A stretch of 29,094 nucleotides of DNA from a virus. Taxonomy: Duplodnaviria > Heunggongvirae > Uroviricota > Caudoviricetes. A model generated the notes under the pieces. That model was not told where the DNA came from. It was given only the letters and a program-made list of their open reading frames with translations, and ran no database searches. The stretch covers positions 1 through 29,094 of the IMG/VR virus record IMGVR_UViG_2778261543_000004, one strand, 5' to 3'. Below are positions 1 through 28,243 of the stretch, piece after piece. Numbering within the stretch: the stretch's first letter is position 1; each line of letters starts with the position of its first letter. Made by a program: the position numbers and the translations under genes.

Positions 1-447
1 TCGGTGGCGGCGGCACAGTTGGTGTGGCGGCCTCAGTCCGGAACAATTTGAAAACCAGAACCTCGCTTAGGCCTGTGTCCATATTACGTGGGTAGGATCA
101 ATCCACACTCTCCGTCGAATCACCGGTACAACGTTAGCGGTTACCTTCTCCACTTTCACAGAACCTAACGGCACTTCGCTGTCGGATGCTTTTGCTCTTT
201 GGAATTATCAAAGCGGCAGATATTCTTTCATCTTAAATTTTACGTCTTTGTCCTGACTGATGTTTATCCTGTTTGGCTGCGAAATAAATATAAAATTAAT
301 ATATATATTGTAATGATATATTTTTATAAATTATTCCCTGCGTGAATTTTAATAAATTTAATCTATCCCTTTATACGCAATACATTTACTTTCCTCTTTT
401 GATGATCTTAAATGTCTTATTTTTCGTAATGTGTATAACAAGGAATA

Positions 448-966
448 GTGATGAAATTTAAAAAATGTCTTCTGCCTGTGGCAATGTTAGCGTCATTCAC
501 TCTGGCAGGATGCCAGTCAAATGCTGACGATCATGCCGCCGATGTTTATCAAACCGATCAACTGAATACCAAACAAGAAACTAAAACCGTTAATATTATT
601 TCCATTCTTCCCGCAAAAGTTGCCGTAGACAACTCCCAAAATAAACGGAACGCACAAGCCTTCGGCGCGCTTATTGGCGCAGTCGCTGGCGGTGTTATCG
701 GCCACAACGTCGGTTCTGGCAGCAATTCCGGAACGACGGCAGGGGCAGTTGGCGGCGGAGCTGTAGGCGCGGCAGTGGGTTCTATGGTGAATGATAAAAC
801 CTTAGTGGAAGGTGTTTCTTTAACATATAAGGAAGGCACCAAAGTGTATACCTCTACCCAGGTGGGTAAAGAGTGCCAGTTTACGACAGGTTTAGCCGTT
901 GTTATTACCACAACGTATAACGAAACGCGTATTCAGCCAAATACTAAATGTCCTGAAAAGAGCTAA
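448..966 (+). CDS. yfgH: Outer-membrane lipoprotein with glycine-zipper segment (YfgH-like)
   Basis: Signal peptide plus lipobox LAGC|Q at the N-terminus; Gly/Ala-rich glycine-zipper stretch (GALIGAVAGGVIGHNVG...GAVGGGAVGAAVG); AAGGA RBS upstream. Symbol assigned from recalled size (172 aa), architecture and the adjacent 179-aa gene, not from an alignment. Confidence 0.75.
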   Translation: MMKFKKCLLPVAMLASFTLAGCQSNADDHAADVYQTDQLNTKQETKTVNIISILPAKVAVDNSQNKRNAQAFGALIGAVAGGVIGHNVGSGSNSGTTAGAVGGGAVGAAVGSMVNDKTLVEGVSLTYKEGTKVYTSTQVGKECQFTTGLAVVITTTYNETRIQPNTKCPEKS

Positions 967-981
967 TAATCAGGAGGAGTC

Positions 982-1521
982 ATGAAGAAAGTTTTTCTTT
1001 GCGCCATCTTGGCCTCCTTAAGCTATCCGGCTATCGCCTCATCATTGCAGGATCAACTCTCTGCTGTAGCAGAAGCTGAACAGCAAGGTAAAAATGAAGA
1101 GCAAAGGCAGCATGACGAATGGGTCGCGGAGCGCAACAGGGAAATCCAGCAAGAGAAGCAACGTCGCGCAAATGCCCAGGCCGCCGCTAACAAAAGAGCG
1201 GCAACGGCAGCGGCAAATAAGAAAGCTCGTCAGGATAAACTGGACGCCGAAGCCTCTGCGGACAAAAAACGCGATCAAAGTTATGAAGATGAGCTACGCA
1301 GCTTAGAGATTCAGAAACAAAAACTGGCGCTGGCAAAAGAAGAAGCCCGCGTTAAGCGAGAAAACGAATTTATCGATCAGGAACTGAAGCACAAAGCTGC
1401 GCAAACCGATGTGGTGCAATCTGAAGCTGACGCCAACAGAAATATGACTGAAGGCGGTCGCGATCTGATGAAAAGCGTGGGCAAAGCAGAAGAGAACAAA
1501 TCGGACAGCTGGTTTAATTAA
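982..1521 (+). CDS. yfgI: Secreted highly charged coiled-coil protein (YfgI-like)
   Basis: Strong RBS AGGAGG 6 nt before the ATG; cleavable signal peptide (MKKVFLCAILASLSYPAIA|SS); K/E/Q/A-rich mature region; followed by an intrinsic terminator. Symbol tentative, based on size (179 aa) and pairing with the upstream lipoprotein. Confidence 0.7.
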   Translation: MKKVFLCAILASLSYPAIASSLQDQLSAVAEAEQQGKNEEQRQHDEWVAERNREIQQEKQRRANAQAAANKRAATAAANKKARQDKLDAEASADKKRDQSYEDELRSLEIQKQKLALAKEEARVKRENEFIDQELKHKAAQTDVVQSEADANRNMTEGGRDLMKSVGKAEENKSDSWFN

Positions 1522-1565
1522 TCGATGTTAGTAACTTCAAGCCTATGATTCTTGAAGATAAAAAA

Positions 1566-1590
1566 CCCTCTGTAGTAACAGAGGGTTTTG
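1566..1590. terminator. Bidirectional rho-independent terminator between host genes and prophage lysis cassette
   Basis: Hairpin CCCTCTG-tagtaa-CAGAGGG flanked by an A-run 5' and a T-run 3', so each strand sees stem plus U-tail. Confidence 0.8.
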
Positions 1591-1740
1591 TTCATTCATA
1601 GTGCAGGGATTAAAATCATTCCCACTCAATTATTTACGGCATATATAACCAATTGACTGGTAACAAATTTATAAGTCAAATTTTTCACCGTACCGTTTTA
1701 TATACCGTCACCGGAAATCAGTACCATGGAAAATGCCATG

Positions 1741-3523: not shown

Positions 3524-3585
3524 AGTGACCACCGTTTAATGTGCATAAAGAACCCCCTTAGTTGGTGAGTTCATCATACACAATA

Positions 3586-3641
3586 AACCATATGTGGTTT
3601 AATTATGATCGGAATGCTCTTAACGAAATTACCTTACGGGT
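3586..3641 (-). promoter_or_regulatory. Late-operon upstream element, copy C (ATTACCTTACGGGT plus AACCATATGTGGTT)
   Basis: Third copy of the bipartite motif also found upstream of the tailspike and portal operons; lies between the acetyltransferase terminator and the lysis operon start. Confidence 0.45.
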
Positions 3642-3666
3642 ATTAAAAAGCCCACCTGAGTGGGCT
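3641..3666 (-). terminator. Rho-independent terminator after the acetyltransferase moron
   Basis: Hairpin AGCCCAC-ctga-GTGGGCT followed on the - strand by TTTTTAATA. Confidence 0.7.
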
Positions 3667-3670
3667 TCTA

Positions 3671-4659
3671 TTACTTGGTTAAGCTTGCTGGCAGGTGGCT
3701 TTTAATTATGTTTTTACCGATGAACACTGACCCTTCATCAGTAGGGTGACCGTAATCCATGGACATAAGCGTAAAGCCACTATCTACCCTTGACCTACAC
3801 TTCAGTTCTGTACCTTCACGTGCACACAAGCCATCAAGTATGTCGACAAAATCATATCCTTCATTGTCTTTTGATATCGTCTTCATTTTGTTATTTGTCG
3901 CGACAATCTGTTTATCCAAAAATCTGTTATCAATGTAAATATCATTGGGATTATAGTTTTTCGCAACAATAAGCGGCAGGCTCCCTTTCCACTGAGGAAC
4001 AGGACCAAGGACTATAACTTTTTTAACACCCAGTGCGTGTATTTTTTCAGCAATATCTTGCCAGTCTGTTTCTTCATGCTGGAATCTCTGAGCTAATACC
4101 ACAACATCAGGTTTAACAATATTTATATCTTCAATGGCTTTTTCATTGGATAGATTACATCCAATTGTGGCACTTATAACTCCAGGGAATTTATGGAGAC
4201 TCGGTTTACAACTTGAAGCAGCAAGTTGATAGAATGGAACGCCATCTTTTAGAAGTGATCTTATCCCTAAAGAAAGTGCTCCCGCGTGAGAGTCTCCCCA
4301 TAAGAAGACACCTCCCCTTTTATCAGTATCGACACATGATTTATCGATATGATCCAGTTTTTCACTGCTGTTACATTTATCCCACATCCCATTATTATCA
4401 AACCGATATCCATCGTAATGCACCACAGTTTCATTACCGGTAGTTTTTGTGATACTTCGCATATCAGTGTTAGCGCCATTAGAAATATATATACCAACAG
4501 CTAAAGCTAATGATGCAAAGTACAGAAACTCCTTTTTAACGCCGCCTCTACTTTTGAAAACACTTTCTATATATTTAAATGACAACATACCCATCGCCAC
4601 TGACGCAACAATTCCAATGAGCGTTGTTAATATAGAAACACCACCATATGTATTATATA
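3671..4659 (-). CDS. O-antigen acetyltransferase, C-terminal SGNH-hydrolase fragment (frameshifted)
   Basis: Last AT3 helix (GGVSILTTLIGIVASVAMGMLSF) followed by an SGNH/GDSL-like domain (GVFLWGDSHAGALS...); upstream of ~4660 this frame is not meaningful, so it is the downstream half of a split gene. Confidence 0.7.
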
Positions 4660-5528
4660 TATAGATAGATCGGCCAGTGCCACAAATAAATTGAATATGA
4701 ATACAACCCAATCTTTTGCGCAAAAGATGAATCTAAGATAATGTTATCAGAACACGACCACAATATGATCATCGTGCCGATGATAGGCAGCAGCGCATTG
4801 TAGCTAGGCCAGTACGATTCCTCGCTAAAAATAAAGCAGGATACTAATATGGTAGCAATCCCGATATATGGGAAAGGTTTTCGTTTAAATATTGATGTCG
4901 GGAAAAGATAAACCACGCCGCCAGCAATCATCTCCCATGCCCTTGTTGGAAGCAAGAAATATGATGAGCTAACTAAAATCCTAGATGCATAAATGCTAAG
5001 TGCTAAACTTAATAGGCCTGCAATCAGAATTAATATCCTAGATACCTTTAAACTGAAAGCCTTTCTGATAATATAAATGGCTAAAGGATATATAATATAG
5101 AATTGCCATTCTACAGATAGAGACCAAGTATGAAGTAACCACTTCTCTTCTGCACCAGGAGCAAAGTAGCTTGACTCCTTCCAATAGACGATATTTGAAA
5201 CAAATAGAAGGCTTGACGCAGCGTGCTTCGCCAATGTCTTAAATTCAGGAGTGTACATGTTGTACCATCCGTATACCATTACGCAAATTAGCATAACGGC
5301 AAGCGCAGGCACTATCCTTCTGGCTCGTGCTTTATAAAAGCCCCACAGAGAAAATTTATTTCCTTCTAATCCGCCAAATATTATTGACGTCATCAAAAAA
5401 CCAGAAATTACAAAGAATACATCTACGCCAACAAATCCACTCGGGACCCATCCTCTGTTGAAGTGGAACAGGACTACAGCAAGAACTGCTATAGCCCTGA
5501 CTCCATTGATATCCTTCCTGAAGTCCAT
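4653..5528 (-). CDS. O-antigen acetyltransferase, N-terminal acyltransferase-3 membrane fragment (frameshifted)
   Basis: Typical AT3 N-terminus (RAIAVLAVVLFHF...GFVGVDVFFVISGFLMT) and multiple transmembrane helices, ending ...YLWHWPIYLYI at a stop inside a (TA)5 tract. Confidence 0.75.
   Translation of the reverse strand: MDFRKDINGVRAIAVLAVVLFHFNRGWVPSGFVGVDVFFVISGFLMTSIIFGGLEGNKFSLWGFYKARARRIVPALAVMLICVMVYGWYNMYTPEFKTLAKHAASSLLFVSNIVYWKESSYFAPGAEEKWLLHTWSLSVEWQFYIIYPLAIYIIRKAFSLKVSRILILIAGLLSLALSIYASRILVSSSYFLLPTRAWEMIAGGVVYLFPTSIFKRKPFPYIGIATILVSCFIFSEESYWPSYNALLPIIGTMIILWSCSDNIILDSSFAQKIGLYSYSIYLWHWPIYLYI
4655..4663. repeat. (TA)n dinucleotide tract at the acetyltransferase frameshift
   Basis: ATATATATA at the junction of the two acetyltransferase reading frames; adding one TA unit fuses them into a single ~619-aa ORF. 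Confidence 0.8.
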
Positions 5529-7920: not shown

Positions 7921-7972
7921 GTTAAATCTCCAGATAGTCGCAGCACCCGTTGCGCCGCATATCCGGTTATTC

Positions 7973-8037
7973 TATTACCTGAAAAACCATATATGGATAG
8001 ACAACCCATAAATACGAACAGATATTACCTTTCAGGT
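7973..8037 (-). promoter_or_regulatory. Late-operon upstream element, copy A (TATTACCT, CCATATATGG, TATTACCTTTCAGGT)
   Basis: 15-bp exact repeat TATTACCTTTCAGGT (8023-8037) shared with 24633-24647, plus perfect palindrome CCATATATGG (7987-7996); upstream of the tailspike start. Confidence 0.5.
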
Positions 8038-8076
8038 GATTCGCAAAACGTGCTGGATAGCAAATAAATTATTTGA

Positions 8077-8096
8077 TACTGTATATTTATACAGTT
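8077..8096 (+). promoter_or_regulatory. LexA operator (SOS box)
   Basis: TACTGTATATTTATACAGTT matches the LexA consensus TACTGTATATATATACAGTA (CTGT-N8-ACAG core); TTGATA -35-like hexamer overlaps its 5' edge; 20 bp upstream of the 8116 ATG. Confidence 0.8.
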
Positions 8097-8115
8097 ATTG
8101 CATGGAGAAGATAAG

Positions 8116-8373
8116 ATGCAGCAGTATCACTATCCACTGGAAGACGGATTTACCGAAAGGATTCACACGCCGGGAGGCGTCAGATCACTGGTGGAGGGAT
8201 CGCACTTGATGAAATTACTCCGGGAGCTCGATAAGGATGGATTTAATGTCGATGGCCCACTTGCCGAACTGACTGCACTGATTAACTACGTCACCAGCTC
8301 ACAGATGTCTATGCGGGATCTGCAAACACATCTCGACTATTGTGCCGAACAATTACGAAAACAAACCACATAA
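8116..8373 (+). CDS. SOS-regulated small hypothetical protein (moron in late region)
   Basis: 85-aa ORF from ATG 8116 with GGAG RBS 8 nt upstream, directly behind the LexA box; opposite strand to the flanking structural genes. No recognisable family; not DinI-like by eye. Confidence 0.65.
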   Translation: MQQYHYPLEDGFTERIHTPGGVRSLVEGSHLMKLLRELDKDGFNVDGPLAELTALINYVTSSQMSMRDLQTHLDYCAEQLRKQTT

Positions 8374-8379
8374 AGAAAA

Positions 8380-8408
8380 GGCCGCTAGAGCGGCCTGTGA
8401 CATGTCAC
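8380..8408. terminator. Hairpin plus GTGACATGTCAC palindrome between convergent genes
   Basis: GGCCGC-taga-GCGGCC hairpin (8380-8395) adjacent to GTGACATGTCAC (8397-8408); T-tract lies on the - strand (TTTTCTTTAT), so it best terminates the - strand small ORF. Confidence 0.65.
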
Positions 8409-19816: not shown

Positions 19817-20152
19817 TTACACGCCCAGTTCTTTACGCTTATCTGCGATCTTCTCGCGGAGCGTTTCGGCTTTGGCGTTATGGTGTGGCTTCTCGTTAAA
19901 GAGCAATTCGTACTCTTCACGGAGCTTATCCAGTTCACCATCATCTGACACATCGTTGATGATTTTGGTGCTGGTTGCTGCCATAGTCACCTTTCCTGCT
20001 ACCTTTGCTTTTGCCTGTCTGGCTGCATCGTTAACAGGTTCCAGTGCGCTACCAGGCTCACCTTCGTATTCGATTTCTGCCCCCTCCGGCCACAGTGTGT
20101 TATGGATATGAGAGAGGCGCAGAACGCGGTATCTTGGTTTCTCACCTGACAT
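19817..20152 (-). CDS. Hypothetical virion protein
   Basis: Likely start at ATG 20152 (MSGEKPRYRV...) with GGTGA RBS; the upstream codons of the listed ORF begin with GTG. Confidence 0.5.
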   Translation of the reverse strand: MSGEKPRYRVLRLSHIHNTLWPEGAEIEYEGEPGSALEPVNDAARQAKAKVAGKVTMAATSTKIINDVSDDGELDKLREEYELLFNEKPHHNAKAETLREKIADKRKELGV

Positions 20153-24544: not shown

Positions 24545-24568
24545 ATCAATGACTCCGTACGCAATTAA

Positions 24569-24647
24569 ATTATTACCAATTTAACCACATATGATTTATT
24601 TATCGTAGAAGGTTGACATTTAACGCGTGAATTATTACCTTTCAGGT
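24569..24647 (-). promoter_or_regulatory. Late-operon upstream element, copy B (TTATTACCA, AACCACATATGA, TATTACCTTTCAGGT)
   Basis: Same bipartite arrangement as copy A, including the exact 15-mer at 24633-24647; on the - strand the proximal copy reads GGTAATAAT (-10-like) about 25 bp before the small ORF and portal. Confidence 0.5.
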
Positions 24648-24970
24648 AACTAAAGAGCTCATTCTGGTTACTAACCTGACTGGCTTGTCGTTAAATTAAA
24701 CAGGTGGAGTGAGCTTTTATTTTGAGCAGTACGGCGTATGGCACATGCGCCGATAGCGGTCTGGATACGTTTAAGGGGCACCATCCCTTGCTCGGGCAAA
24801 CGAACCAGGTAGCCGGAATGTGCAAGTCGAGCGGTTTTATTCCGCGCACGGGGATTCACCATCCCGGCGATTCGGTGTGACGCCTCGGAAGAGACGAGGG
24901 TACAACGATGAGAGCATTTATGGAGCCGCGACAAAGTGTGGCGCCTTAACAGGCTAAGTGCTCTCAGCGT

Positions 24971-25047
24971 TGTGGCATTAGCTCAGTCGGACAGAGCAAC
25001 CGCCTTCTAAGCGGTTGGTCGCAGGTTCGAATCCTGCATGCCACGCC
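24971..25047 (+). tRNA. tRNA-Arg (anticodon UCU, reads AGA)
   Basis: Folded by hand into a cloverleaf: acceptor GTGGCAT/ATGCCAC, D-arm GCTC-AGTCGGACA-GAGC, anticodon arm ACCGC-CTTCTAA-GCGGT, T-arm GCAGG-TTCGAAT-CCTGC, discriminator G and encoded CCA. Confidence 0.9.
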
Positions 25048-25091
25048 AGAATCACGCCTAAGGACCGTGATGCCAGAAGTTCCAGGGGCTT

Positions 25092-25133
25092 GGCGGTGAT
25101 GGTTTCCCTTGAAGGACTATCACCGCCCTTTTT
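25092..25133 (+). terminator. Hairpin plus T-run after the tRNA
   Basis: GGCGGTGAT...ATCACCGCC stem followed by CTTTTT. Confidence 0.55.
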
Positions 25134-25211
25134 ACAGCAGGACGCCATTGCGATGACTTCATGCTGTAAACCCGTACAGCCACGGAAGGCATAACTCATT
25201 GCTTCCAGTTC

Positions 25212-25235
25212 GCCCGGTTCGCCGGGCATTTTTTT
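25212..25235 (+). terminator. GC-rich hairpin plus T7 run immediately upstream of the 25247 RBS
   Basis: GCCCGG-ttcg-CCGGGC followed by ATTTTTTT, ending 1 nt before the AAGGTGAG RBS. Confidence 0.55.
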
Positions 25236-25246
25236 AAGGTGAGATT

Positions 25247-25618
25247 ATGAACGACAAGCAAATCGAAAAAGAAATCGTTGAGAAAGGCAAAACGGCACCG
25301 CGCGTTACGCCAGACCATATCGAAGGCATTATTGCTCAGGAGGCATATTTCACAGCAGAAGATGGTGCCTTTGGCAAAGCCATAAAAGCGAAACATACTG
25401 GCGGAGAGGTAAACTACCAGCCGCACGAATCACTTTCTCTGCTGACGTTCTGCGTCCTGGTGCTGCGCAACGGCTTCACCGTCACCGGAGAGAGCGCCTG
25501 TGCAAGCCCGGAAAACTTTGATGCAGAAATTGGTCGGAAGATTGCCCGGCAGAATGCTGTAAACAAAATCTGGATGCTCGAAGGTTACTTGCTGAAGCAG
25601 AAGCTAAGCGAGCAATAA
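25247..25618 (+). CDS. Small phage protein, possibly of the N4 gp49 / Sf6 gp66 family (moron)
   Basis: 123 aa, RBS AAGGTGAG; opposite strand to the packaging operon; stop followed by GTGACATGTCAC and an intrinsic terminator. Family assignment from memory of a motif (TGESACASPENFDAEIGR), unverified. Confidence 0.65.
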   Translation: MNDKQIEKEIVEKGKTAPRVTPDHIEGIIAQEAYFTAEDGAFGKAIKAKHTGGEVNYQPHESLSLLTFCVLVLRNGFTVTGESACASPENFDAEIGRKIARQNAVNKIWMLEGYLLKQKLSEQ

Positions 25619-27184: not shown

Positions 27185-27777
27185 TGATTACCATCCTGAC
27201 GTTCTTTGAGTCGCTTCCTGGCTGCCGCTATGCGATCAGCAATTGTCACATTCACATTAACATCCAGGCGTTCTTTGAATGCGTTGACGTCGACGTGCTT
27301 ACCAATCAGTTCGAGGTTCTTCACCTTGTCAGGCCATTTAATTTTTTTGAGGATTGTCTCTATCGAATCCTCGTTCATGTTCATGATGGTCGATGACAGA
27401 TCAAAGCCACTAAGCGTAGTGCGCCAGATTTTCGGCCACTCACTGATTGGTTTAAGGCTCCCATCGTCGTTGAGGATATCGATCACGTCCATCTGGTCGA
27501 TCTCCACCAGGCGCATGAGAACGTAATCAGCACTGACGCGCATTCGTTTGTTGCGCTCCTCCATCAACTCGGCAATCCGTTTTTGAATGCGTTCATCGCG
27601 CATCATGACACTGGCTTTAACTGCCGCTGTATTTGGGGAGAATCCTGCGTTAATCGCTGCCTGAGTCTGGTTTTCAGGCGTTTTGATGTATGACTGGCAA
27701 TAAGCCTCCTGCATTGCTGTGAGCGGCTTAAATTGCGTTGATTTGCGTTTATAGGTTTTAGGTTCAGCAGGCATCAT
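27181..27777 (-). CDS. Terminase small subunit
   Basis: About 198 aa from ATG 27777/27774 (GGTGG RBS); the first 26 codons of the listed ORF are probably not translated; directly upstream of and overlapping terL. Confidence 0.65.
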   Translation of the reverse strand: MMPAEPKTYKRKSTQFKPLTAMQEAYCQSYIKTPENQTQAAINAGFSPNTAAVKASVMMRDERIQKRIAELMEERNKRMRVSADYVLMRLVEIDQMDVIDILNDDGSLKPISEWPKIWRTTLSGFDLSSTIMNMNEDSIETILKKIKWPDKVKNLELIGKHVDVNAFKERLDVNVNVTIADRIAAARKRLKERQDGNQ

Positions 27778-27786
27778 AACCACCAT

Positions 27787-27813
27787 GGTAATAGTTACCG
27801 TTGTGGTAATAGT
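27787..27813. repeat. Tandem direct repeats GGTAATAGT (x2) just upstream of terS
   Basis: GGTAATAGTTACC at 27787 and GGTAATAGTACCA at 27805, flanked by CCATGG and CCATGC; lie between the terminator and the terS start. Confidence 0.5.
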
Positions 27814-27820
27814 ACCATGC

Positions 27821-27846
27821 AAAATAAAGCCGCCATAGTTGGCGGC
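27821..27846 (-). terminator. Rho-independent terminator upstream of the packaging operon
   Basis: GCCGCCA-acta-TGGCGGC followed on the - strand by TTTATTTTG; about 45 bp before the terS start. Confidence 0.7.
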
Positions 27847-27887: not shown

Positions 27888-27899
27888 GTGACATGTCAC
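27888..27899. repeat. 12-bp perfect palindrome GTGACATGTCAC (third copy)
   Basis: Identical to copies at 8397-8408 and 25623-25634; overlaps the stop codon of the zinc-ribbon gene and sits ~40 bp before the terminator. Confidence 0.8.
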
Positions 27900-28243
27900 A
27901 CTATTAATTTCGTTTCATGCCAGCCTTTAGTCACCCAGCATTGCGAGTCACCATTACACGGGCATGAATTAACAGGAACTCTCTCGCCGCACTTACCGCA
28001 ACGTTTTCTACTGATCGATTTTATACGCCCGCGCACACGTGCATCATCCTGGCGGATCAGCAGCGCGATGTACTCGGCCATTTCATAGGGATCGCGACCA
28101 GGGCGCCGGGCGGCGCAGTTCCGCGCCAGCATTTCCTGCTCCTGCTTATCCAGCACCAGTTCAATTTTGCGCTCACCGGCGGCGGACTGCCGAGCGCGCT
28201 GCGCGGATTTGCGTTCTGCGGGGGATTTAGCCACGAATCGCAC
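27896..28243 (-). CDS. Cys4 zinc-ribbon small protein (possible regulator)
   Basis: C-terminal CGKCGERVPVNSCPCNGDSQCW motif (C-x2-C-x8-C-x-C); basic N-terminus. Start uncertain: GTG at 28243 (115 aa) or ATG at 28132 with strong AGGAG RBS (78 aa). Confidence 0.55.
   Translation of the reverse strand: MRFVAKSPAERKSAQRARQSAAGERKIELVLDKQEQEMLARNCAARRPGRDPYEMAEYIALLIRQDDARVRGRIKSISRKRCGKCGERVPVNSCPCNGDSQCWVTKGWHETKLIV

What the first reader, a model, noticed from the sequence alone, without database searches (positions are those of the whole stretch)
7973..8037. Conserved bipartite motif upstream of three late operons (tailspike, portal, lysis)
Read on the - strand, the regions upstream of the tailspike (8037 to 7973), the portal operon (24647 to 24569) and the lysis operon (3641 to 3586) share ACC(T/C)G(A/T)AAGGTAAT(A/T), followed 35-47 bp later by a CATATG-centred near-palindrome (CCATATATGG, AACCACATATGG, CATATGTGGTT), and in two of them a second GGTAATA(A/G)(A/T) copy. 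The distal 15-mer is identical in two copies. This looks like a phage-specific late promoter or activator-binding architecture rather than a plain sigma70 promoter.
Basis: seen in the sequence. Interest (0 to 1): 0.65.

Follow-up and report, generated by a model that had tools for sequence, protein, structure and literature searches.

The report
Prophage repressor operators heading late operons
The repeated motif is real, but its main part is the binding site of the prophage's own immunity repressor, already predicted in the related phage epsilon15, placed next to weak late promoters; it is not a new late-gene activator site.

Summary
The window is a phiV10/epsilon15-like (Uetakevirus) prophage with its late genes on the - strand. 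The three motif copies exist where stated and exceed chance.

Two more copies lie directly upstream of terS, giving 5 sites against 0.06 expected.

In complete relatives the same dyad flanks the repressor gene rep, three sites on each side, and overlaps the -10 of PL, PR and the terS promoter. The epsilon15 RefSeq record annotates the orthologous late-operon sites as repressor-binding. In relatives with a diverged Rep (Proteus, Morganella, Providencia) the rep-flanking dyads change (ATAACC, ATAAAC). The dyads before terS and gp3/portal, and the proximal "second GGTAATA", change with them.

So both GGTAAT-containing parts are Rep sites, not late-activator sites.

The CATATnnGGTT palindrome is a separate conserved element at fixed spacing. 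It most likely belongs to a -35-poor late promoter core (tailspike T(T/C)CATA-17-TAGAAT; lysis xxAACC-17-TATGAT). It may also bind a second, unidentified regulator.

At gp3 the dyad also overlaps the -10 of a conserved divergent promoter that points at a tRNA-Arg gene.

Verdict: a new member of a known kind, of modest interest.

The parts
8024..8040 (.). Rep operator dyad (ATCACC-TGAAA-GGTAAT read on the - strand) upstream of the tailspike gene. It contains the finding's distal 15-mer (8023-8037).
   Evidence: The orthologous epsilon15 site (record 19895-19911) is annotated protein_bind 'repressor'.
24634..24650 (.). Rep operator dyad (GTTACC-TGAAA-GGTAAT on the - strand) upstream of gp3/portal. 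It also carries the -10 of the divergent + strand promoter.
   Evidence: Epsilon15 orthologue 2931-2947 is annotated 'repressor'. Conserved in 16 prophages of other genera.
3628..3644 (.). Rep operator dyad (AATACC-CGTAA-GGTAAT on the - strand) directly after a terminator, upstream of the lysis cassette.
   Evidence: Dyads sit at the same position (dyad start 121 nt before the ATG) in phiV10, epsilon15, SPC32H and Tyrion.
27776..27810 (.). Two adjacent Rep dyads (27794-27810 and 27776-27792) between the terS promoter -10 and the terS ATG (about 27771).
   Evidence: Epsilon15 orthologue 12-27 is annotated 'repressor'.
27809..27817 (-). Extended -10 (TGgTACTAT) of the terS promoter. Its last two bases are the first two of the operator, the same geometry as GATTAT|TACC at PL.
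   Evidence: score 7.4 including the TG. TGnTA(C/G)TAT|TACC is conserved across lineages. Proteus and Morganella have TTGAAT-17-CATAAT overlapping their own operator type (read from the sequences).
7985..7996 (-). CCATATATGGTT palindromic element ('class B') of the tailspike module.
   Evidence: Conserved in 6 genomes, 27 nt after the dyad.
24583..24594 (-). TCATATGTGGTT class B element of the gp3/portal module.
   Evidence: Conserved in the Escherichia-type relatives and in Pantoea, 39 nt after the dyad in the Escherichia-type ones.
3586..3599 (-). AACCACATATGGTT class B element of the lysis module. It is a perfect 14-bp palindrome, AACCATATATGGTT, in phiV10 and Tyrion.
7969..7979 (-). GGTAATAGAAT: proximal Rep half-site (GGTAAT) abutting the probable -10 (TAGAAT) of the tailspike promoter. 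Predicted start near 7962.
   Evidence: T(T/C)CATA-17-TAGAAT scores 6.4 here and 9.8 in epsilon15, SPC32H and the Klebsiella prophage. The conserved block ends at this hexamer.
24567..24577 (-). GGTAATAATTT: proximal Rep half-site plus -10-like hexamers (AATAAT, TAATTT) of the gp3 promoter. It lies 62 bp from the distal half-site.
   Evidence: The half-site becomes GTTTAT in Morganella and Providencia and GGTTAA in Proteus.
3573..3578 (-). TATGAT, the probable -10 of the lysis promoter (TATAAT in phiV10).
   Evidence: phiV10 TTAACC-17-TATAAT scores 11.6.
24613..24641 (+). Divergent promoter TTGACA-17-TACCTT, with its -10 inside the Rep dyad. It points at tRNA-Arg and the gp49/gene-66 family gene.
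   Evidence: score 12.4, above the maximum of 12.0 in the null. The -35, read as GTCAA(T) on the - strand, is conserved 16 nt from the dyad in most lineages, including Proteus and Morganella.
24972..25048 (+). tRNA-Arg(tct), the first gene of the unit driven by the divergent promoter.
3530..3592 (-). Long hairpin in the lysis leader (26 pairs). It includes the GGTT of class B, the TATGAT hexamer and bases next to the ribosome-binding site.
   Evidence: -30.75 kcal/mol; one compensatory pair; eight pairs with a change on one side that keeps pairing. The epsilon15 record annotates the orthologue as an RNase III site.
27829..27846 (-). Rho-independent terminator that ends the early-right operon, 13 nt before the terS operators.
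   Evidence: conserved.
3648..3667 (-). Terminator hairpin directly upstream of the lysis-module dyad.
8379..8396 (-). Terminator that ends the structural operon upstream of the tailspike module.
8079..8094 (.). LexA box CTGTATATTTATACAG in front of the divergent antirepressor gene.
8098..8373 (+). Antirepressor Ant, which in SPC32H inactivates Rep (function taken from the literature, recalled from memory).
   Evidence: 88% identical to the gene annotated ant in SPC32H.
27896..28234 (-). 112-aa protein in the family of epsilon15 gp49. My reading of the sequence is a ribbon-helix-helix-like N-terminus and a C-terminal cysteine cluster. It is the only candidate late regulator in the window, and its function is unknown.
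   Evidence: (phrog_536 'transcriptional regulator'). No Pfam or PDB hit.

Best explanation
The 'bipartite motif' is a composite of two kinds of element.

(1) Repressor sites. The distal 15-mer is part of the 17-bp dyad operator ATTACC-N5-GGTAAT of the prophage immunity repressor Rep. Rep is an XRE-type helix-turn-helix protein homologous to SPC32H Rep and epsilon15 gp38. The 'second GGTAATA' is a promoter-proximal Rep half-site.

Each transcription unit of these phages starts with such sites, and most follow a terminator. This holds for PL, PR, gp40, gp43, terS, gp3/portal, tailspike, lysis and int. In the lysogen, Rep would therefore silence every unit directly. At terS it does so by covering the -10 and the start site. 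At gp3 and the tailspike I infer that Rep binds a high-affinity distal dyad together with a weak half-site that abuts the -10. The spacing is fixed at 62 bp (gp3) and 50 bp (tailspike), and Rep is a tetramer, which suggests DNA looping.

Induction would run as follows. DNA damage removes LexA from the box at 8079-8094, Ant is made, Ant disassembles Rep, and all units open.

(2) The palindrome. CATATnnGGTT lies at about -31 to -21 of a late promoter core that has a good -10 and a poor -35 (TAGAAT, AATAAT/TAATTT, TATGAT). It is either an unusual -35/spacer region or the site of a second, dimeric phage regulator.

What is shown: presence, excess over chance, conservation, co-variation with Rep, and overlap with promoter elements. 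What is inferred: Rep binding itself, looping, the exact transcription starts, and the role of the palindrome.
For: - Abundance. There are 5 dyads in the window against 0.06 expected, all at operon heads.
- Immunity region. In epsilon15, SPC32H and phiV10 the same dyad flanks rep on both sides: six sites in epsilon15 and SPC32H, fewer clear ones in phiV10. It overlaps PL (TTGACA-17-GATTAT|TACC) and PR (TTGATT, GGT|AATAAT), and it brackets the gp43 promoter with 62-bp spacing.
- Annotation. The epsilon15 RefSeq record marks the orthologous terS, gp3 and tailspike sites as protein_bind 'repressor'.
- Co-variation. Morganella and Providencia use ATAAAC-N5-GTTTAT and Proteus uses ATAACC-N5-GGTTAT around a Rep homologue (34% identical, E 4e-40). 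The dyads before terS and gp3, and the proximal half-site, switch to the same type.
- terS promoter. Its -10 (TGnTAcTAT) overlaps the first operator in every lineage examined.
- Spacing. The distance from the distal to the proximal GGTAAT is invariant: 62 bp at gp3 in 14 of the 15 Escherichia-type lineages (64 bp in Pantoea) and 50 bp at the tailspike in 4 genomes counted. The intervening sequence varies.
- Circuit. Ant is 88% identical to SPC32H Ant and has a LexA box. Rep carries a tetramerisation domain of the type linked to DNA looping (PMC9986798; PMC9638917).
- Late promoter core. The -10 elements sit at conserved positions, and the conserved block ends at the -10 in the tailspike and gp3 modules.
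Against: - No binding or transcript data could be obtained. The primary papers on epsilon15 and SPC32H are not in the library.
- The rep gene and immunity region of this particular prophage lie outside the window. No exact source genome was found.
- At the tailspike and lysis modules the distal dyad is centred about 67-70 bp upstream of the predicted start, which is far for simple occlusion. The lysis module has no proximal GGTAAT.
- The sense promoters score only 6.4 in the window, against a null median of 5.4 and a 95th percentile of 8.8.
- The lysis leader hairpin includes the proposed -10 (TATGAT). This implies that at least some transcripts start upstream of it.
- CATATnnGGTT also occurs at the gp40 and gp43 promoters, and in the PL spacer of Tyrion, at other positions relative to -35/-10. 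It is therefore not simply a -35 substitute.
Confidence: 0.62

Rival explanations
1. The internal modules are not late promoters. Late transcription starts only upstream of terS and reads through the internal terminators, perhaps helped by the gp49-like protein acting as an antiterminator.

Under this reading the dyads at gp3, tailspike and lysis control divergent promoters (the tRNA unit, ant, conversion genes) or act as roadblocks against read-through in the lysogen. The conserved proximal blocks would then be RNA-level elements, such as processing or translation-control hairpins.
For: - Each late unit follows a terminator (phiV10 annotation).
- A promoter-like site, GTGACA-18-CATGAT, sits directly before the terminator upstream of terS, next to a conserved palindrome, GTGACATGTCAC, at the stop codon of the gp49-like gene.
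- The strongest sigma70-like site at gp3 is the divergent one, with its -10 inside the dyad (score 12.4). It faces a tRNA.
- The lysis leader forms a conserved 26-pair hairpin that includes the supposed -10.
Against: - Opposite-strand genes (tRNA and gene-66 family gene, ant) interrupt the late region.
- The terS promoter itself is an ordinary Rep-overlapped extended -10 promoter downstream of the terminator.
- Conservation of the tailspike and gp3 blocks stops at a -10-like hexamer and the leaders then diverge. That is the pattern of a promoter, not of an RNA element.
- No consensus structure exists in the tailspike leader.
- The gp49-like protein has no similarity to known antiterminators.
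Confidence: 0.2
2. One reading: the distal 15-mer and the CATATG palindrome together form a late-specific promoter recognised by a phage late activator, as with P2 Ogr, Mu C or P1 Lpa.
For: - The motif lies upstream of three late operons that lack a good -35.
- An uncharacterised putative DNA-binding protein is encoded just before terS, the usual place for a late regulator.
Against: - The distal dyad is not late-specific. It flanks rep, overlaps the -10 of early promoters and co-varies with Rep.
- It is annotated as a repressor site in epsilon15.
- terS, the first late operon, has dyads but no CATATG element.
- CATATnnGGTT also occurs at non-late promoters.
Confidence: 0.06
3. CATATnnGGTT is the operator of a second dimeric phage regulator, such as the Cro-like gp39 homologue or the gp49-like protein, and not part of the RNA polymerase recognition sequence. 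It would modulate several promoters, late and middle. This can coexist with the Rep explanation for the GGTAAT parts.
For: - The element has 14-bp two-fold symmetry. It is perfect (AACCATATATGGTT) in phiV10 and Tyrion at the lysis module, and I count 5-6 of 7 symmetric positions elsewhere.
- It appears in either orientation and at different promoter positions: in the spacer of the gp43-type promoter and of Tyrion PL, just upstream of the -35 at gp40, and at about -28 at the late promoters.
- A related ATGGTT element persists at the gp40 module in Morganella although the Rep type has changed.
Against: - No candidate protein could be linked to it.
- It is absent from the terS promoter and from the gp3 modules of Morganella, Providencia and Proteus.
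- The right arm (GGTT) is much better conserved than the left.
- Its left arm coincides with a usable -35-like hexamer (TTCATA) at the tailspike promoter.
Confidence: 0.3
4. The repeats are chance similarities in AT-rich intergenic DNA.
For: A single identical 15-mer pair in 29 kb is not very unlikely by itself (my estimate).
Against: - 5 dyads against 0.06 expected.
- Positional conservation in six phage or prophage genomes (five annotated records plus phiV10) and 16 prophages of other genera.
- Co-variation with Rep type.
Confidence: 0.01

Closest known systems
Epsilon15 / SPC32H (Uetakevirus) Rep-operator-Ant lysis-lysogeny switch
   Same: - Same phage group: 95.7% DNA identity to phiV10 and about 76% to epsilon15.
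- Same 17-bp dyad at orthologous positions, annotated as repressor sites in NC_004775.
- Same Ant (88% identical) with a LexA box.
- Rep of the close relative phiV10 is 42% identical to SPC32H Rep.
   Different: - This is a different prophage. It has a different tailspike, its O-acetyltransferase gene is co-directional and split, and each of its five dyads has one mismatch.
- The lysis-module dyad, the proximal half-sites, the CATATnnGGTT element and the divergent gp3 promoter are not annotated in the records I could read.
- What the primary papers say about them could not be checked.
Phage P1 C1 repressor with operators dispersed over the genome (own knowledge)
   Same: One immunity repressor directly controls many separate operons through operators scattered around the genome, rather than only an immunity region.
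   Different: P1 C1 operators are asymmetric 17-mers. P1 late genes still need the Lpa activator, whose gene C1 represses. The proteins are unrelated.
Mycobacteriophage L5 gp71 'stoperators' (own knowledge)
   Same: There are many repressor sites in short intergenic gaps, including the late region. They keep the prophage silent and can block read-through.
   Different: Stoperators are asymmetric 13-mers that act in one orientation on elongating polymerase. Here the sites are symmetric, and several overlap -10 elements.
Lambda CI at OL/OR: cooperative binding and looping (own knowledge)
   Same: Multiple dyad operators flank the repressor gene and overlap -10/-35 elements. The repressor oligomerises, and the paired sites suggest looping.
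   Different: Lambda CI does not bind at late operons, which are controlled by Q antitermination. Rep is inactivated by an antirepressor, not by RecA-stimulated cleavage.
Activator-dependent phage late promoters (P2 Ogr TGT-N12-ACA, Mu C, P1 Lpa inverted repeat near -22; own knowledge)
   Same: The late promoters have a usable -10, a poor -35 and a conserved palindrome near the -35/spacer region.
   Different: No homologous activator is present, the sequence motif differs, and the palindrome is not restricted to late promoters.

Membership tests
Operator of the epsilon15/SPC32H-type Rep repressor | 17-bp dyad ATTACC-N5-GGTAAT | tested here: met
   Five sites with one mismatch each, against 0.06 expected.
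Operator of the epsilon15/SPC32H-type Rep repressor | The same motif clusters on both sides of the cognate rep gene and overlaps the early promoters. | tested here: inconclusive
   Met in phiV10 (95.7% identical relative), epsilon15, SPC32H and the Morganella prophage. The rep region of this prophage is outside the window, and no exact source genome was found.
Operator of the epsilon15/SPC32H-type Rep repressor | Orthology to sites assigned to the repressor in a curated record | tested here: met
   Epsilon15 protein_bind 'repressor' features at 12-27, 2931-2947 and 19895-19911 correspond to the terS, gp3 and tailspike sites. The lysis site has an unannotated orthologue.
Operator of the epsilon15/SPC32H-type Rep repressor | The site sequence changes together with the repressor in heteroimmune relatives. 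| tested here: met
   ATAAAC-N5-GTTTAT (Morganella, Providencia) and ATAACC-N5-GGTTAT (Proteus) occur near rep and before terS and gp3, and the proximal half-site follows. Not tested for the tailspike and lysis modules, because those loci were not fetched.
Operator of the epsilon15/SPC32H-type Rep repressor | Physical binding by Rep and repression in vivo | not testable with these tools
   Needs EMSA, footprinting, ChIP or reporter fusions.
Consensus sigma70 promoter (sense strand, late operons) | -35 and -10 hexamers with at least 9 of 12 matches at 16-18 bp spacing | tested here: not met
   No sense-strand hit in the three modules. The weight-matrix scan gives good -10 scores (5.5-6.4) but -35 scores between -1.2 and 0.9.
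Late-specific activator-dependent promoter (Ogr, C or Lpa type) | The motif is restricted to late promoters. | tested here: not met
   The dyad occurs at PL, PR, gp40, gp43 and int. CATATnnGGTT occurs at gp40, gp43 and Tyrion PL, and is absent at terS.
Late-specific activator-dependent promoter (Ogr, C or Lpa type) | A cognate late activator gene of a known family | tested here: not met
   The only candidate (27896-28234) has no Pfam, NCBIfam or PDB match, and all listed homologues are named hypothetical or phage protein.
Q-type antitermination late control | A constitutive promoter followed closely by a terminator downstream of the regulator gene, and a Q-family protein | tested here: inconclusive
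   A promoter-like site plus a terminator is present before terS, but there is no Q homologue. A separate Rep-overlapped promoter lies downstream of the terminator.

The most novel reading that the evidence does not exclude
Uetakeviruses may have no classical late activator. Instead, every late operon would be gated directly by the immunity repressor. Gating would use a fixed-geometry pair: a full distal operator plus a promoter-proximal half-site (62 or 50 bp apart), bridged by the tetrameric, loop-forming Rep.

The 14-bp CATATnnGGTT palindrome would be the operator of a second, so far unidentified phage regulator, for example the gp49-like protein. That regulator would set the timing of middle and late promoters.

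The lysis leader hairpin would add a fail-safe that silences read-through transcripts from the co-directional conversion gene.
Probability: 0.25. Interest if true: 0.5.

Novelty: new member of a known kind. Interest (0 to 1): 0.3.

Why it matters
- For annotation, these sites should be labelled repressor operators, not late promoters. The same holds for the many related prophages of Escherichia, Salmonella, Klebsiella, Enterobacter and Citrobacter, where the architecture is conserved.
- For biology, the immunity repressor of this phage group appears to control the packaging, head, tailspike and lysis operons directly. That is a simpler circuit than the lambda cascade.
- For engineering, phiV10-type phages are used as reporter phages. 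Anyone engineering them should know which short sequences keep late genes silent.
- The unexplained CATATnnGGTT palindrome and the fixed operator spacing are small, testable leads on Rep looping and on late-gene timing.

Tried and rejected
- **Literature.** Kropinski 2007 (epsilon15 genome), Kim & Ryu 2013 and Kim et al. 2016 (SPC32H Rep/Ant) are not held. Text searches gave no promoter or operator mapping for this phage group. The ZX5 paper only predicts PL and PR.
- **Consensus promoter scan.** No sense-strand promoter in the three modules.
- **Promoter between the dyad and the palindrome.** This fits the spacing at the lysis module (30 nt) and at gp3 (TTCACG-18-TACGAT scores 8.7), but the hexamers are not conserved and the tailspike gap (27 nt) is too short. 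Kept only as part of a rival explanation.
- **PL-type geometry** (distal operator, 18 nt, -35). It does not fit the late modules (read by eye).
- **Alternative sigma factor consensus sequences** (sigma32, sigma54, sigmaE, sigma28) and IHF or CRP boxes. Compared by eye from memory; none fits.
- **CATATnnGGTT as a degenerate Rep operator.** The left-half match is only 1-2 of 6.
- **Structure of the gp49-like protein.** The model was poor (mean pLDDT 65), so no fold search was run.
- **IMG/VR portal search.** It returned only loci with portals 99-100% identical to the window's. These were useful for micro-variation but not for divergence.
- **Tailspike leader.** No conserved RNA structure.
- **Source genome.** Not found among complete E. 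coli genomes; the best match was 96-97% identical.

Full report
**Context.** The window is a prophage of the phiV10/epsilon15 group (genus Uetakevirus). It is 95.7% identical to phiV10 over 78% of the first 25 kb and about 76% identical to epsilon15. All late genes are on the - strand:
- terS (about 27771-27181) and terL;
- a small gene, gp3 (24544-24338), and the portal gene (24323-22644), followed by the head and internal-virion genes down to about 8629;
- the tailspike gene (7920-5626);
- a lysis cassette (3523 down to about 1741).

Opposite-strand units interrupt this block. They are a tRNA-Arg (24972-25048) with a gene-66 family gene, and the antirepressor gene ant (8098-8373). Ant is 88% identical to SPC32H Ant.

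**The observation.** Two things were missed.

First, each 15-mer is most of a 17-bp inverted repeat, ATTACC-N5-GGTAAT, at 8024-8040, 24634-24650 and 3628-3644. Second, two more such dyads sit side by side at 27794-27810 and 27776-27792, just before the terS start codon. With up to one mismatch the window has five dyads against 0.06 expected, and none of 100 shuffles reaches five. All five are at operon heads.

**What the dyad is.** Five lines of evidence point to the operator of the immunity repressor Rep.
- In epsilon15 and SPC32H the same dyad occurs three times on each side of the repressor gene rep; phiV10 has fewer clear copies there.
- It overlaps the -10 of PL (TTGACA-17-GATTAT|TACC) and of PR (TTGATT, then GGT|AATAAT). 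It brackets the gp43 promoter with two copies 62 bp apart, and it precedes gp40 and int.
- The epsilon15 RefSeq record annotates the sites before terS, gp3 and the tailspike as protein_bind 'repressor, lysogeny', together with those near rep. The lysis-module dyad is present in epsilon15 but not annotated.
- Sixteen prophages from other enterobacterial genera, fetched through the portal protein, allow a co-variation test. Escherichia-type lineages and Pantoea keep ATTACC-N5-GGTAAT upstream of gp3. Morganella and Providencia carry ATAAAC-N5-GTTTAT, and Proteus carries ATAACC-N5-GGTTAT. In Morganella these dyads lie next to a Rep homologue that is 34% identical to phiV10 Rep. In Morganella and Proteus the dyads before terS and gp3 have switched to the lineage's own type. 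The promoter-proximal half-site has switched too: GTTTAT in Morganella and Providencia, GGTTAA in Proteus.
- The terS promoter is an extended -10 promoter, TGnTA(C/G)TAT. Its last two bases are the first two of the operator, exactly as at PL. This holds in every lineage examined, and Proteus and Morganella have TTGAAT-17-CATAAT overlapping their own operator type.

This is repressor geometry, and the element is not late-specific. The activator reading of the distal element is therefore rejected. From memory, and unverified here, Rep of SPC32H is a tetramer inactivated by the LexA-controlled Ant. Two papers that could be read confirm that Rep binds palindromic sites as a tetramer and carries a tetramerisation domain of the type associated with DNA looping. 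The LexA box is at 8079-8094.

**The second GGTAATA.** It abuts the best -10 candidates: GGTAA|TAGAAT at the tailspike and GGT|AATAAT at gp3, which is the same arrangement as at PR. Its distance from the distal half-site is invariant although the DNA between varies. It is 62 bp at gp3 in 14 of the 15 Escherichia-type lineages (64 bp in Pantoea), which equals the operator spacing at PL and gp43. It is 50 bp at the tailspike in the four genomes counted. Together with its co-variation, this makes it a weak Rep site. I infer, but have not shown, that a Rep tetramer bridges the distal dyad and this half-site and so covers the -10.

**The CATATG element.** The consensus is (C/T)CATATnnGGTT. It is often a 14-bp palindrome and is perfect (AACCATATATGGTT) at the lysis module of phiV10 and Tyrion. 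It lies 27, 39 and 30 nt after the dyad in the tailspike, gp3 and lysis modules, without variation among relatives.

A weight-matrix scan finds sense-strand promoters with good -10 and weak -35 elements at conserved positions:
- tailspike: T(T/C)CATA-17-TAGAAT, scoring 9.8 in epsilon15, SPC32H and the Klebsiella prophage and 6.4 here;
- lysis: xxAACC-17-TATGAT, scoring 11.6 for TTAACC-17-TATAAT in phiV10.

gp3 aligns in the same register as the tailspike (ATCATA-17-TAATTT). In the tailspike and gp3 modules, conservation stops at the -10 and the leaders then diverge. This is what a promoter looks like. I therefore place the palindrome in the -35/spacer region of weak late promoters.

Three observations keep a second-regulator reading open. 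The element has two-fold symmetry. It also occurs in the spacer of the gp43-type promoter and of Tyrion PL, and just upstream of the -35 at gp40. And it is absent at terS. No binding protein could be assigned. The only candidate in the window is the 112-aa gp49-like protein, which has no characterised relative, and its predicted structure was poor.

**Complications.**
- At gp3 the strongest sigma70-like site is on the opposite strand. It is TTGACA-17-TACCTT at 24613-24641, scoring 12.4, above the null maximum. Its -10 lies inside the dyad. Its -35, read as GTCAAT on the - strand, is conserved 16 nt from the dyad in most lineages, including Proteus and Morganella. It faces the tRNA-Arg gene. 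This dyad therefore certainly serves a divergent promoter, whatever it does for gp3.
- The lysis leader folds into a conserved 26-pair hairpin (3592-3530) that contains the proposed -10, TATGAT. Some transcripts must therefore begin upstream of it. Epsilon15's annotators called this region an RNase III site. Here the O-acetyltransferase gene lies upstream on the same strand. The terminator, the Rep site and the hairpin may together protect the lysogen from read-through into the lysis genes. That is speculation.
- A promoter-like site followed by a terminator lies upstream of terS. This leaves some room for a read-through or antitermination model of late transcription, which I rate at about 0.2.

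**Verdict.** The motif is chiefly the operator network of a known repressor family, already predicted for epsilon15, found here in a new relative. The proximal palindrome and the fixed operator spacing are modest leads that are unannotated in the records I could read.

Noticed in passing
window 8079-8094 and 8098-8373 (+): A near-consensus LexA box, CTGTATATTTATACAG, lies directly before a small gene whose product is 88% identical to the SPC32H antirepressor Ant. The prophage is therefore probably induced through a LexA-controlled antirepressor rather than through repressor cleavage.
   Followed up: partly
window 25164-25179 (+): A second CTGT-N8-ACAG sequence (CTGTAAACCCGTACAG) lies about 70-80 nt upstream of the gene-66 family gene (25247-25618). 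It may be a weak LexA site or chance. The pattern has 3 matches in the window against 0.30 expected.
   Followed up: no
window 24972-25048 (+): A tRNA-Arg(tct) gene lies on the strand opposite to the late genes, downstream of the conserved divergent promoter at 24613-24641. An 83-aa ORF (24978-25229, -) overlaps it on the other strand and may be spurious.
   Followed up: partly
window 3671-5528 (-): The O-antigen acetyltransferase appears split into two overlapping ORFs: an AT3 domain (4653-5528) and an SGNH domain (3671-4723). It lies on the same strand as the late genes, unlike oac in phiV10, SPC32H and Tyrion. This could be a frameshift or pseudogene.
   Followed up: no
window 3530-3592 (-): The lysis leader forms a conserved 26-pair hairpin (-30.75 kcal/mol for the alignment, one compensatory pair). 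It covers bases next to the ribosome-binding site. The orthologous region is annotated as an RNase III site in epsilon15.
   Followed up: partly
window 27888-27901 (-): A 12-bp perfect palindrome, GTGACATGTCAC, overlaps the stop codon of the gp49-like gene. It is conserved in nearly all Escherichia-type relatives examined, although the last codons of the gene vary. It may be a regulator site or a -35 element.
   Followed up: partly
L103, L091, L087, L090 (between the gp49-like gene and terS): In four related prophages an extra gene is inserted here, preceded by a promoter with a strong LexA box (for example TACTGTGTATTTATACAGTA). This would be another SOS-controlled cargo gene at this position.
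   Followed up: no
window 1-1613: Homology to phiV10 stops at 1614, beyond the Rz gene. The remaining stretch encodes a glycine-zipper/TraT-like protein (448-966) and a DUF5384 protein (982-1521). Phage TL-2011b matches from position 99. The integrase and immunity region are not in the window.
   Followed up: no
window 7958-7968 (+): A second, inverted copy of the CATATnnGGTT pattern (CATATCCGGTT) lies in the tailspike leader 17 nt from the first. The pair could form a hairpin in this prophage and in phiV10, but it is not conserved in epsilon15, Tyrion or the Klebsiella prophage.
   Followed up: partly
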